34,304 bases of DNA from a virus (lineage: Duplodnaviria; Heunggongvirae; Uroviricota; Caudoviricetes). The first letter of the stretch is position 1. Each line of letters starts with the position of its first letter. Positions 28,558-29,355 of this stretch are shown in pieces. Under the pieces are notes generated by a model. The model saw only the letters and a list, made by a program, of their open reading frames with translations. It was not told where the DNA came from and did not search any database. The translations under genes were made by a program, and so were the position numbers. The DNA is taken from the IMG/VR virus record IMGVR_UViG_2703718827_000010, positions 1 through 34,304 of that record; one strand, 5' to 3'.

Positions 28558-28651
28558 TGAGGTCGATTGAGATCAACAAATCGGCGTTTGCCGTTGCAGT
28601 AAAGAACTTTTTGGTTAAGATGTTTCCGATTGCAATCAAAGGGAACAATTA

Positions 28652-29335
28652 ATGAAAAAGATTTTAGCTTTGGCGCTTGGAGCGCTTTTACTGTCTGGAT
28701 GTACTGCTCCAGTTTACAATTACATTCCTCAGGAAAAGAGCTTTAGCGTTCCGCCATTGAATACTTCAACAACAACATATGTTGGCGAGGAAATGGTTAA
28801 ACAAGGTGTAGACTCAAGTAGCGATGCTATTCACTTCGAGCAGTCTACGCAAATTGGTGAAAGCTTTTATTATGTTATCCCAGCAGGTGACTACGCTAAA
28901 GTCGGTCAAAAGGGAGACTCGGAGTTTTTCAGCGGAATCAATAGCCGGACTGGGGCAGTCATACCTTATAGGCCAATGATTAACGATCCTGTTAAAAATA
29001 TTCAATTAAAAAACTCAGGTGAAATTTGCATCATCACCGTATTTAACGGGACAAAGTGCGATACAGGTAAATCCTACAGCAAGGTCAAACTGAATTCATC
29101 GGTTAAAAGCTCTTTCCAGCAGACGCTAATCTATAACGGAAAGGTTGGTAATAAAATAAATATTGGTTATAGGGAGTATTCGGATGGCTTGGCTCGCCCC
29201 GCCTTTTCGAATGAAGTTGAATATGATCTCTCTGAATCCAAAACAATTCGCTACAAGGGCGCGATACTTGATATCCTTGAAGCCAATAACCAATCAATAA
29301 CTTTTAAGTTAACACGAAATTTCAACACGCAATAA
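28652..29335 (+). CDS. Secreted lipoprotein moron (227 aa) inserted between tail chaperone and tape measure genes
   Basis: Signal peptide MKKILALALGALLLSGC with lipobox LSGC, +2 Thr; AT-rich; flanked by hairpins. Confidence 0.75.
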   Translation: MKKILALALGALLLSGCTAPVYNYIPQEKSFSVPPLNTSTTTYVGEEMVKQGVDSSSDAIHFEQSTQIGESFYYVIPAGDYAKVGQKGDSEFFSGINSRTGAVIPYRPMINDPVKNIQLKNSGEICIITVFNGTKCDTGKSYSKVKLNSSVKSSFQQTLIYNGKVGNKINIGYREYSDGLARPAFSNEVEYDLSESKTIRYKGAILDILEANNQSITFKLTRNFNTQ

Positions 29336-29355
29336 AACCGTTGTTTCCTATCTAA

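What the first reader, a model, noticed from the sequence alone, without database searches (positions are those of the whole stretch)
28560..29350. Lipoprotein moron inserted between tail chaperone and tape measure genes
The G/GT-to-tape-measure junction is normally contiguous. Here an AT-rich 227-aa lipoprotein gene (lipobox LSGC, +2 Thr suggesting outer-membrane sorting) is inserted, flanked by terminator-like hairpins. A possible sigma70-like promoter (TTGCAG, 16 nt spacer, TAAGAT) lies about 28596-28623. A prophage-encoded outer-membrane lipoprotein is a classical lysogenic-conversion or superinfection-exclusion factor (receptor blocking, as Cor/Llp do, or serum resistance, as Bor does). 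Its location inside the tail operon is unusual.
Basis: partly seen in the sequence, partly recalled or inferred. Interest (0 to 1): 0.65.

Follow-up and report, generated by a model that had tools for sequence, protein, structure and literature searches.

The report
Add-on lipoprotein gene in phage tail
A temperate E. coli phage carries an extra, self-contained gene for an outer-membrane lipoprotein at the spot in its tail operon where the first "moron" (HK97 gene 15, a phage-exclusion gene) was described, so the layout is classic rather than unusual, although the protein family is widespread and unstudied.

Summary
ORF 28652-29335 (+) encodes a 227-aa prolipoprotein (lipobox LSGC, Cys17, +2 Thr) with GC 0.40, against 0.50-0.54 in its neighbours. 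It lies between the tail chaperone G/GT genes and the tape measure gene of an HK022-like lambdoid prophage and is bracketed by two hairpins.

It is a true insertion. Of 64 related tail modules, 40 have an empty junction, 13 carry this gene and 10 carry other low-GC envelope genes, one of them a PF14373 superinfection-immunity protein. HK022 is empty here. HK97 carries gene 15, the archetypal moron, at this same junction, so "unusual location" is wrong.

The protein belongs to phrog_1353. It has no Pfam, NCBIfam, PADLOC, PDB or fold match, and no similarity to Cor, Bor or TraT. The family has over 3000 clusters, and most of the 80 species loci examined are chromosomal, across several diderm phyla. 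In phages it nearly always flanks the tape measure gene.

Function is unproven. The best guess is a prophage-expressed outer-membrane lipoprotein that blocks phage entry (about 0.45). It is a new member of a known kind, of moderate interest.

The parts
27824..28306 (+). Tail assembly chaperone G (upstream boundary gene)
   Evidence: PF16459 Phage_TAC_13 at E 5.6e-33 and phrog_1749. It is 72% identical to HK022 gp13.
28156..28162 (+). Slippery heptamer GGGAAAG for the -1 frameshift that produces GT
   Evidence: The register is G GGA AAG relative to the G frame, and the simulated fusion is 214 aa.
28153..28467 (+). T reading frame (-1 relative to G); its stop at 28467 marks the 5' edge of the inserted interval
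   Evidence: The frame is open over 28153-28467. PF06223 Phage_tail_T hits at E 7.8e-07.
28468..29394 (+). The whole interval between the T stop and the TMP start (927 nt, GC 0.409) that holds the cassette
   Evidence: The same interval is 19 nt in HK022 and 77 nt in L194, where T stops at 5644 and TMP starts at 5722.
28530..28551 (+). 5' hairpin (8-bp stem, 6-nt loop) followed by UUUUCCUUCU; probably the junction's native hairpin
   Evidence: It folds at -13.9 kcal/mol, z -2.9. It was not called as a terminator by the scan. Similar hairpins directly precede TMP in empty-site relatives and in other cargo variants.
28594..28599 (+). -35-like TTGCAG
   Evidence: It lies in the column of the conserved TTG in 30 unique leaders, upstream of a freely varying spacer of fixed length. 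It matches only 3 of 6 consensus positions.
28616..28621 (+). -10-like TAAGAT (TAGGAT with an upstream TGn in most other copies)
   Evidence: These columns carry high information content in 30 unique leaders. The motif TAGGATRTTTCYGATTGYAAY occurs exactly once per locus in 43 loci, about 36 nt before the ATG.
28622..28645 (+). Conserved leader GTTTCCGATTGCAATCAAAGGGAA (candidate operator or initial transcribed region); the predicted hairpin 28621-28647 has its 3' arm over the Shine-Dalgarno AGGGA at 28640-28644
   Evidence: The sequence is unique in the window. It is conserved between cassettes whose proteins are only 45-69% identical. The hairpin folds at -7.6 kcal/mol, z -2.5, and is lost if transcription starts near 28628.
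28652..29335 (+). Lipoprotein gene (227 aa). The signal peptide is residues 1-16 and the lipid-modified Cys17 codon is 28700-28702. The mature part is an all-beta protein with a variable N domain and a conserved C domain
   Evidence: phrog_1353 matches at E 3e-65 over the full length. C17 and C126 are invariant and C136 is at least 90% conserved. The AF2 model has pLDDT 82.8 and is all-beta.
29354..29379 (+). Intrinsic terminator (9-bp stem, 4-nt loop, T-run), 15 nt before the TMP start codon
   Evidence: It was called by the terminator scan and folds at -14.5 kcal/mol, z -3.0.
29395..31812 (+). Tape measure protein (downstream boundary gene)
   Evidence: phrog_2854 at E 9.6e-270 and PF09718. 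It is 70% identical to HK022 TMP over residues 1-635.

Best explanation
The region is a moron: a horizontally acquired, self-contained transcription unit inserted at the G/GT-to-TMP junction of an HK022-like tail operon in a lambdoid temperate phage of E. coli and related Enterobacteriaceae. It comprises a sigma-70-type promoter (-35 TTGCAG, -10 TAAGAT), a conserved leader with a Shine-Dalgarno sequence, the lipoprotein ORF and an intrinsic terminator.

Shown by sequence and comparison: the insertion itself, the low GC, the promoter-like and terminator elements, the lipobox with its invariant Cys, and membership of the uncharacterised family phrog_1353.

Inferred: in the lysogen the gene is transcribed from its own promoter while the late operon is silent. 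The precursor is exported, lipidated at Cys17 and, lacking Asp at +2, sorted by Lol to the inner leaflet of the outer membrane. There a roughly 210-residue beta-rich periplasmic part would sit under the outer membrane, probably holding a C126-C136 disulfide. During lytic growth, polymerase modified by the Q antiterminator (Q gene at 14329-14907) reads through both hairpins.

Most likely role (committed, unproven): envelope-level superinfection exclusion. The lipoprotein would interfere with entry of incoming phages at or just beneath the outer membrane, either at the receptor or at the step where the tail tip and tape measure cross the periplasm. This is what HK97 gp15 does from the inner membrane at the same genomic site.
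For: Anatomy:
- ORF, lipobox and GC.
- Hairpins.
- Of 64 related junctions, 40 are empty, 13 hold this gene and 10 hold other cargo.
- HK022 has an empty site, and HK97 has gene 15 plus a terminator at the same junction.
- Phylogenetic footprint of the promoter.
- Temperate, Q-antiterminated context: integrase, CI-like repressor, CII, Q.
- No Asp at +2 in 163 family members.

Function by association:
- HK97 gp15 at this site is a prophage-expressed exclusion protein that blocks genome injection in a manner dependent on the phage tail region (PMC3594210).
- Every alternative cargo at this junction is a low-GC envelope protein. One is PF14373 Imm_superinfect (E 1.7e-15) and phrog_1039 'immunity to superinfection'.
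- In 74 of 93 phage-context loci the gene is within two genes of a same-strand ORF of at least 600 aa. Sixty-eight of these lie beside a Pfam-confirmed TMP, in 7 unrelated TMP clusters.
- The same holds in a contractile-tail E. coli prophage.
- The distant Fels-2 homologue STM2726 lies in the P2 gpA-gpQ old/tin defence hotspot, next to an AIPR abortive-infection gene (PMC9122126).
- The N domain diverges much faster than the C domain: 28-34% against 65-68% identity between the two enterobacterial lineages.
- There is precedent for a lipoprotein that targets TMP: Ltp of TP-J34 (Bebeacua 2013, seen in the reference list of PMC3952083).
Against: - At least 60 of 80 species-level genome loci are not in recognisable prophages. 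Their neighbours are varied housekeeping genes, across Proteobacteria, Planctomycetes, Nitrospirota and other phyla. The family therefore has a cellular role independent of phages, and the phage copies keep the conserved C domain almost unchanged.
- Lipoproteins 83-91% identical to one another sit beside unrelated TMPs, either upstream or downstream. Specific co-adaptation to one TMP is therefore unlikely. The TMP flanks may simply be permissive insertion sites that already carry a hairpin, as the empty sites do.
- The window's promoter is a weak consensus match (7 of 12) and lacks the TGn found in other copies.
- There are no expression, localisation or phenotype data.
Confidence: 0.45

Rival explanations
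1. It is a lysogenic-conversion or host-fitness factor unrelated to phage exclusion. The phage copy would supply the same envelope function as the chromosomal family members, such as a structural, stress or homeostasis role at the outer membrane, to hosts like E. coli that mostly lack the gene.
For: The family is mostly chromosomal and stand-alone in many diderm phyla, with housekeeping neighbours. The C domain is highly conserved, with about 30 invariant residues. Only 55 of 5426 complete E. coli genomes carry a recognisable copy, so it is accessory in this host. Phage copies are closest to chromosomal copies of the same host clade.
Against: This does not explain the strong preference for TMP flanks. 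It also does not explain the company the gene keeps at the hotspot, which includes Imm_superinfect and, in Fels-2, an AIPR gene. No conserved partner or operon hints at a pathway.
Confidence: 0.3
2. It acts in the lytic cycle, made from the late transcript. It could protect progeny from inactivation on receptor-bearing debris, as T5 Llp does, or condition the envelope for lysis or release.
For: The gene lies inside the Q-antiterminated late operon, on the same strand as the tail genes. Read-through transcripts would include it.
Against: The gene has its own conserved promoter and terminator. A predicted leader hairpin would mask the Shine-Dalgarno sequence specifically in read-through RNA (weak evidence). 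The gene is dispensable in 40 of 64 related phages. It is not in the lysis cassette; the endolysin is at 16603-17220. The weak spanin PHROG hit covers only the N-terminal region, residues 1-59.
Confidence: 0.1
3. It is a Bor/Iss-like or TraT-like serum-resistance lipoprotein, that is, a virulence conversion factor.
For: It is an outer-membrane lipoprotein encoded by a prophage of Enterobacteriaceae. At 227 aa its precursor is close to TraT in size (TraT is about 244 aa from memory).
Against: The Pfam scan returned no Bor or TraT family hit. Most homologues are in environmental, non-pathogenic bacteria such as Planctomycetes, Nitrospirota, marine Proteobacteria and the bee-gut genus Gilliamella. 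By default sorting the protein faces the periplasm.
Confidence: 0.05
4. It is a neutral passenger. The cassette persists because TMP-flanking hairpins are easy insertion sites and the gene is harmless, with no benefit to phage or host.
For: The junction is polymorphic and often empty. A native hairpin is present even at empty sites.
Against: The ORF is intact with conserved residues in all 13 related phages at 91-100% identity, and in the other phage loci examined. The regulatory leader is under stronger conservation than the coding sequence.
Confidence: 0.05

Closest known systems
HK97 gene 15 (gp15) moron, a YebO-related inner-membrane superinfection-exclusion protein
   Same: It occupies the same junction (chaperone G/GT to TMP) in a homologous Hendrixvirinae-type tail module. 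It is followed by a terminator directly before the TMP ribosome-binding site. It is absent from HK022. It has mostly chromosomal homologues (PMC3594210).
   Different: gp15 is a 62-aa inner-membrane protein of the YebO family. The protein here is an unrelated 227-aa lipoprotein predicted to go to the outer membrane. No sequence similarity was found, and exclusion activity is untested here.
Cor (phi80/N15/HK022) and Llp (T5), small outer-membrane lipoproteins that inactivate FhuA
   Same: They are phage-encoded lipoproteins located within or next to tail and receptor-binding genes, and they act on the cell envelope to block entry (PMC3594210 for Cor; Llp from memory).
   Different: They have about 60-80 residues and are phage-specific. 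The only hit to the Cor PHROG (phrog_1119, E 0.073) covers residues 1-18, the signal peptide. No FhuA link was tested.
Ltp of Streptococcus thermophilus phage TP-J34
   Same: It is a prophage-encoded lipoprotein that excludes superinfecting siphophages, with the tape measure protein identified as its target (title of Bebeacua 2013, cited in PMC3952083). This is the working analogy for a TMP-linked lipoprotein.
   Different: It acts in a Gram-positive host, has a helical repeat fold and lies in the lysogeny module rather than next to TMP. No homology was found.
Bor/Iss and TraT serum-resistance or surface-exclusion lipoproteins
   Same: They are outer-membrane lipoproteins encoded by mobile elements and expressed in the carrier cell.
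   Different: No Pfam match was found. The phylogenetic spread differs, since this family is mostly environmental and chromosomal.
PHROG family phrog_1353 (unknown function)
   Same: The match is full-length at E 3e-65. Members occur in Acinetobacter Vieuvirus and Moraxella phages, in the Vieuvirus just upstream of TMP and in the Moraxella phage within the tail-gene region.
   Different: Nothing is known about this family, so membership gives no function.

Membership tests
Moron (Juhala/Hendrix sense) | Extra DNA that is absent from otherwise homologous phages at the same position | tested here: met
   Of 64 related junctions, 40 are empty, including L193-L195 with 88-92% identical chaperones. 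HK022 has a 19-nt gap.
Moron (Juhala/Hendrix sense) | Base composition different from the surrounding genes | tested here: met
   GC is 0.401 against 0.497-0.554, and GC3 is 0.395 against 0.47-0.52.
Moron (Juhala/Hendrix sense) | Own promoter | tested here: inconclusive
   The consensus scan found none. However, -35 TTG, a spacer of fixed length and (TGn)TA[G/A]GAT are conserved in 30 unique leaders from at least 5 genomic contexts. No transcript data exist.
Moron (Juhala/Hendrix sense) | Own terminator | tested here: met
   The hairpin at 29354-29375 plus a T-run was called by the scan and folds at -14.5 kcal/mol. As a caveat, a similar hairpin precedes TMP even at empty sites.
Moron (Juhala/Hendrix sense) | Expressed from the repressed prophage | not testable with these tools
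   This needs RNA-seq, 5'-RACE or a reporter in a lysogen.
Bacterial lipoprotein (Lgt/LspA/Lnt pathway) | Signal peptide ending in a lipobox [LVI][ASTVI][GAS]C with a conserved Cys | tested here: met
   The N terminus is MKKILALALGALLLSGC. Cys17 is invariant in 61 sequences. A lipobox was found in 163 of 174 locus copies. The PF08139 hit is sub-threshold.
Bacterial lipoprotein (Lgt/LspA/Lnt pathway) | Outer-membrane sorting (no Lol-avoidance Asp at +2) | tested here: met
   The +2 residues in 163 members are T 81, A 62, V 11, S 4, N 4 and L 1, with no D. The rule is established for E. coli. Actual localisation was not tested.
Cor superinfection exclusion protein (phrog_1119) | Sequence membership over the mature protein | tested here: not met
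   E is 0.073 and the match covers residues 1-18 only, the signal peptide.
Bor/Iss (Lambda_Bor) and TraT | Pfam family match | tested here: not met
   The Pfam scan at E up to 0.1 returned only LPAM_1.
HK97 gp15 / YebO | Sequence similarity to gp15/YebO | tested here: not met
   There was no Pfam or PHROG hit to that family. The proteins differ in size and topology (62-aa inner-membrane protein against a 227-aa lipoprotein).
HK97 gp15 / YebO | Position between the chaperone and TMP genes of an HK97/HK022-type tail module | tested here: met
   PMC3594210.
Superinfection immunity protein (PF14373) | Pfam match | tested here: not met
   This protein has no hit. The alternative cargo at the same junction in L192 does hit, at E 1.7e-15.
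Known anti-phage defence systems (PADLOC-DB) | Match to any PADLOC model | tested here: not met
   The window protein, P0099 and Fels-2 STM2726 matched 0 families.
o-spanin (Rz1-like) | Outer-membrane lipoprotein encoded in the lysis cassette with an i-spanin partner | tested here: not met
   The phrog_1804 hit has E 0.017 and covers residues 1-59 only. The gene is 11 kb from the endolysin at 16603-17220.
phrog_1353 | Full-length profile match | tested here: met
   E 3e-65, residues 1-225 against profile positions 1-227 of 230.

The most novel reading that the evidence does not exclude
phrog_1353 is an unrecognised, very widespread family of outer-membrane lipoproteins. Tailed phages, both siphoviruses and myoviruses, repeatedly capture it from host chromosomes and place it beside the tape measure gene. 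It would serve as a Gram-negative counterpart of Ltp. The conserved C domain would dock on a universal envelope component. The fast-evolving N domain would intercept the incoming tail tip or tape measure in the periplasm and so block genome injection. A conserved promoter and leader element would restrict its synthesis to the lysogenic state.
Probability: 0.22. Interest if true: 0.65.

Novelty: new member of a known kind. Interest (0 to 1): 0.4.

Why it matters
The layout is textbook: a moron at the HK97 gene-15 site. The finding as first stated, an "unusual" location, is therefore ordinary.

What could matter is the protein. It belongs to a family of more than 3000 sequence clusters across several diderm phyla. 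The family has no curated domain, no matching solved structure and, in the literature I could search, no study. In phages it is almost always found next to the tape measure gene, at a junction whose other cargoes include a recognised superinfection-immunity protein.

If it blocks phage entry, it would be a new and common envelope-level defence relevant to phage host range and phage therapy. If it does not, it points to an unknown conserved outer-membrane function. The junction itself is also a compact, easily mined hotspot for candidate entry-blocking genes.

Tried and rejected
- Homology to known families gave nothing informative beyond phrog_1353. I tried Pfam, PHROGs, NCBIfam, PADLOC and PDB sequences.
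- A search for informative domain fusions among 150 profile hits found none. Longer proteins are start-codon over-extensions, and one is a capsid::lipoprotein chimera that is probably an artefact.
- Rfam found no known RNA in the flanks.
- Megablast of the region found no match in phage records or in complete E. coli genomes.
- The literature has nothing on the Fels-2 homologue (STM2726) apart from one microarray paper. I found no paper on this family. Cumby 2012 was not held.
- A tail-assembly or virion role is rejected because the gene is dispensable in 40 of 64 related modules.
- A spanin role is rejected on position and because the only hit is confined to the N-terminal region.
- Tight TMP co-adaptation is rejected because nearly identical lipoproteins flank unrelated TMPs.
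- The idea that both hairpins came in with the cassette is rejected because empty sites already carry a hairpin before TMP.
- Two leads were left untested. The leader variant TAGGATTAATCCTA resembles the RcsAB box as I remember it. A leader hairpin that masks the Shine-Dalgarno sequence would exist only in read-through transcripts, but its covariation is weak.
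Full report
WHAT IS THERE. The window is a lambdoid temperate phage. It has an integrase (1-1170), a CI-like HTH/S24 repressor (7802-8461, minus strand), a CII-like gene (8672-9241), a Q-type antiterminator (14329-14907), a GH19 endolysin (16603-17220) and a large terminase (20073-21830). A head and tail module follows. Its tail genes are of the HK022/HK97 type. The tail tube gene is 27267-27770 (PF16460). The chaperone G is 27824-28306 (PF16459) and is 72% identical to HK022 gp13. 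The T frame is 28312-28467 (PF06223). The tape measure protein (TMP) is 29395-31812 and is 70% identical to HK022 TMP over residues 1-635. The canonical -1 frameshift site GGGAAAG lies at 28156-28162 in the register G GGA AAG. The -1 frame is open from 28153 to 28467, which predicts a 214-aa GT fusion.

Between the T stop and the TMP start lie 927 nt (28468-29394, GC 0.409). This interval holds ORF 28652-29335, which encodes 227 aa beginning MKKILALALGALLLSGC|TAPV. Its GC is 0.401, against 0.50-0.55 for the neighbouring genes. The minus strand of this interval has only short ORFs of 55-73 aa with no support.

SIGNALS. An 8-bp hairpin lies at 28530-28551 (-13.9 kcal/mol, z -2.9) and has a poor U-tract. 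A 9-bp hairpin lies at 29354-29375 (-14.5 kcal/mol, z -3.0). It is followed by a T-run and sits 15 nt before the TMP start codon. The terminator scan called the 3' hairpin but not the 5' one.

It matches only 7 of 12 consensus positions, and the scan called nothing. Comparison rescues it. The leader motif TAGGATRTTTCYGATTGYAAY occurs exactly once per locus in 43 fetched loci, always about 36 nt before the lipoprotein ATG. Thirty distinct leaders come from cassettes in different genomic contexts. They show high information content at a -35 TTG, low information across a spacer of fixed length, then high information at TGn and TA(G/A)GAT. That is the footprint of an extended -10 promoter that travels with the gene. 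The window's clade has lost the TG.

About 20 nt downstream of the -10 element (GTTTCYGATTGYAA) are also nearly invariant. This holds even between cassettes whose proteins are only 45-48% identical, with N domains about 30% identical. I cannot say whether this is an operator, an initial-transcribed-region signal or RNA structure. A hairpin at 28621-28647 (-7.6 kcal/mol, z -2.5) would cover the Shine-Dalgarno sequence. It would form only in RNA that starts upstream, that is, in late read-through transcripts, and not in RNA that starts near 28628. That idea is a weakly supported inference. Rfam has no match in the region.

IT IS AN INSERTION IN A HOTSPOT, AND THE SITE IS CLASSIC. I fetched 80 viral contigs encoding a related chaperone and measured the junction where both G and TMP were present (64 loci).
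- Forty are empty. The distance from the G stop to the TMP start is 212-356 nt, which is just the T frame. These include L193-L195, whose chaperones are 88-92% identical to the window's.
- Thirteen carry this lipoprotein.
- Ten carry other cargo, all low in GC (0.34-0.39) and all envelope proteins: a 125-aa signal-peptide protein, a 203-aa unrelated lipoprotein (phrog_29243), a 241-aa zinc-ribbon plus transmembrane protein, and a 99-aa protein matching PF14373 Imm_superinfect (E 1.7e-15) and phrog_1039 "immunity to superinfection".
- One locus is ambiguous.

The annotated records settle the comparison. In HK022, gp14 ends at 8458 and TMP starts at 8478. In HK97, the same junction holds Gp15, annotated "moron product", plus a putative terminator. 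[quoted passage not shown] It also states that gp15 is a prophage-expressed inner-membrane protein that blocks genome injection in a way that depends on the tail region, and that its homologues (YebO) are mostly chromosomal.

A GC hairpin with a T-run sits directly before the TMP ribosome-binding site in every variant, including the empty sites. At least one of the window's two hairpins is probably native to the junction rather than imported.

THE PROTEIN. It matches phrog_1353 (unknown function) over its full length at E 3e-65. It has no Pfam, NCBIfam or PADLOC family and no PDB relative by sequence. The exact sequence is annotated as "hypothetical protein" or "lipoprotein" in E. coli (64 contigs), Enterobacter, Citrobacter and Leclercia. 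The family is large: 1244 clusters at 90% identity and 3115 clusters at 50%. Almost all members are 215-235 aa, with no informative fusions.

In a 61-sequence alignment, C17 and C126 are invariant and C136 is at least 90% conserved, which suggests a periplasmic disulfide. The last 75 residues or so are extremely conserved. None of 163 members has Asp at +2; the counts are T 81, A 62, V 11, S 4, N 4 and L 1. By the E. coli Lol rule this predicts outer-membrane sorting.

WHERE THE FAMILY LIVES. A scan of one genome per species found 175 loci. They span alpha-, beta-, gamma- and delta-Proteobacteria, Planctomycetes, Nitrospirota, Gemmatimonadota, Omnitrophota and Bacteroidota. Of the best 80, only 9 are clearly prophage by neighbour similarity. 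One more has a TMP neighbour, and about four others are suspiciously close to viral copies. The remaining loci, at least 60, have varied housekeeping neighbours (nrdB, argG, ispG, gshA, secDF, truB; in Acinetobacter shaoyimingii, obg-proB) and no conserved partner. The family is therefore primarily a stand-alone cellular lipoprotein. Phage copies are closest to chromosomal copies of the same host clade: Acinetobacter 70-96%, Gilliamella 91%, Enterobacterales 67-80%. This suggests repeated exchange between host and phage.

In phages the position is striking. In 74 of 93 phage-context loci, the gene lies within two genes of a same-strand ORF of at least 600 aa. Sixty-eight of these lie beside a Pfam-confirmed TMP, in 7 mutually unrelated TMP clusters (TMP_2, TMP_3, Tape_meas_lam_C). 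One long neighbour is a primase, and two clusters have no Pfam hit. The gene can be upstream of TMP (window type, Klebsiella type, Acinetobacter Vieuvirus). It can also be directly downstream, as in lambda-like TMP-[lipoprotein]-M-L-K.

In complete E. coli genomes only 55 of 5426 carry a recognisable copy. In the two I opened, it lies directly after the TMP of a contractile-tail prophage: sheath, tube, chaperone, TMP, [225-aa protein], DNA circularization protein.

Exceptions exist. Fels-2 STM2726 is a lipoprotein with lipobox LTGC, 25% identical to the window protein over its full length. It lies in the P2 gpA-gpQ old/tin hotspot next to an AIPR abortive-infection gene (PMC9122126). A Pantoea element carries the gene after primase and PerC.

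Lipoproteins that are 83-91% identical to one another flank unrelated TMPs on either side. A 45%-identical lineage occupies the window's own junction type in Rouxiella. The cassette therefore moves between TMP flanks rather than co-evolving with one TMP.

HOW IT MOST LIKELY WORKS. Shown: an autonomous-looking cassette (promoter footprint, Shine-Dalgarno sequence, lipoprotein ORF, terminator) inserted in the late operon of a temperate, Q-antiterminated phage.

Inferred: the gene is expressed from its own promoter in the lysogen, and Q-modified polymerase reads through both hairpins in lytic growth. The protein is lipidated at Cys17 and sorted by Lol to the inner leaflet of the outer membrane.

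Committed guess (about 0.45): it excludes superinfecting phages at the envelope. Five observations support this.
- HK97 gp15 at the same site does exactly that.
- The other cargoes of this junction are envelope proteins, including a recognised superinfection-immunity domain.
- The family clings to TMP genes.
- A distant member sits in a proven defence hotspot beside an Abi gene.
- The N domain evolves much faster than the C domain.
Ltp of TP-J34 shows that a lipoprotein can target a TMP.

Against this: there is no homology or fold link to any exclusion protein. The family's main habitat is the chromosome of bacteria far from any prophage. There is no TMP-specific co-variation. TMP flanks may merely be permissive, hairpin-bearing insertion sites.

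The main rival (about 0.3) is a host-envelope fitness function identical to that of the chromosomal homologues. A lytic-cycle role, Bor/TraT-like serum resistance and neutral carriage are less likely. A tail-assembly role is excluded by dispensability in 40 of 64 relatives.

VERDICT. The architecture is a new instance of the oldest known kind of moron, at its type locality. It is a new member of a known kind and of moderate interest (0.4). The interest comes mainly from two things: the protein family is large, uncharacterised and tied to tape measure genes, and the junction is a compact hotspot of candidate entry-blocking genes.

Noticed in passing
window 28594-28651; L006 5930-6000; L009 5930-6000; L108 7930-8000; L015 7930-8000: The non-coding leader of the cassette (-35 TTG, TGnTAGGAT, then GTTTCYGATTGYAA) is more conserved than the coding sequence. 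It is nearly identical between cassettes whose proteins are 45-48% identical, with N domains about 30% identical. A second leader variant (TGnTAGGATTAATCC... GGGATTAGGGATatg) occurs in L122, L124, L031, L033 and L257. It could be an operator for a host regulator or an RNA element. TAGGATTAATCCTA resembles the RcsAB box as I remember it, which I did not test.
   Followed up: partly
L194 5690-5722; L193 5665-5710; L184 6290-6326; L192 6085-6120; L198 3565-3601; L256 (HK97) 1899-1923: A GC-rich hairpin followed by a T-run sits immediately before the TMP ribosome-binding site in every variant of this tail module examined from the metagenomic set, including junctions with no cargo. HK022 has no room for one. 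This looks like an intrinsic terminator or attenuator built into the late operon just upstream of TMP. It may set TMP dosage or serve as the landing pad for cargo.
   Followed up: partly
L184 5700-5725 and 6290-6315, compared with window 28530-28551 and 29354-29375: The two hairpin types appear to be swapped between cargoes. The hairpin 5' of the 125-aa cargo in L184 (gccagctcaggtggg) resembles the window's 3' hairpin (cccagctcaggctggg). The L184 3' hairpin (cccgctgatgcggg) resembles the window's 5' hairpin (cccgcttaactgcggg). This could reflect former tandem cassettes or recombination at hairpins.
   Followed up: no
L192 5766-6065; L184 5888-6265; L198 3178-3555; L202 5717-6442; L231 5730-6341: The alternative cargoes at the same G/GT-TMP junction are a PF14373 Imm_superinfect plus zinc-ribbon membrane protein, a 125-aa secreted protein with no family, a 241-aa zinc-ribbon plus transmembrane protein, and a 203-aa unrelated lipoprotein (phrog_29243). 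All have GC 0.34-0.39. Together they form a ready list of candidate entry-blocking genes.
   Followed up: partly
L257 5542-6219 (E. coli C4, NZ_CP010121.1) and L258 5542-6219: A 225-aa family member lies directly after the TMP of a contractile-tail (sheath/tube) E. coli prophage and before the DNA circularization protein. The association with TMP therefore extends to myoviruses.
   Followed up: partly
L003 3494-4225 and 4493-6190 (Fels-2, NC_010463.1): Fels-2 STM2726 is a distant family member. It is a lipoprotein if translation starts at the internal MKINNV, so the annotated start is probably 17 codons too early. It sits in the P2 old/tin hotspot next to STM2723.1, which carries a PF10592 AIPR abortive-infection domain.
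   Followed up: partly
L009/L010/L011 2900-7200 (Klebsiella aerogenes prophage): In this tail module the chaperone-TMP gap has grown to about 4 kb and holds a whole set of accessory genes: two Arc-like repressors, a Bro-N/P22 antirepressor-like gene, a pRha-like gene, the lipoprotein and a zinc-ribbon membrane protein (phrog_8032).
   Followed up: no
P0208 (446 aa, metagenomic protein): This protein is a chimera of a phage major capsid N-terminal part (PF05065) fused in frame to the C-terminal 145 residues of the lipoprotein family. It is probably an assembly or deletion artefact.
   Followed up: no
window 25156-25386: A 76-aa ORF just after the major capsid gene ends in a run of alternating Glu-Pro (PAEPEPEPEPEPEPAATKRGKAK), encoded by a short tandem DNA repeat.
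   Followed up: no
L001 11475-12062 (Acinetobacter phage Ab1656-2): This Vieuvirus carries the family member two genes upstream of TMP. It also has a second, different annotated lipoprotein directly downstream of TMP, so both TMP flanks are occupied by lipoprotein genes. A DUF4258/HTH pair (toxin-antitoxin-like) lies just upstream.
   Followed up: no
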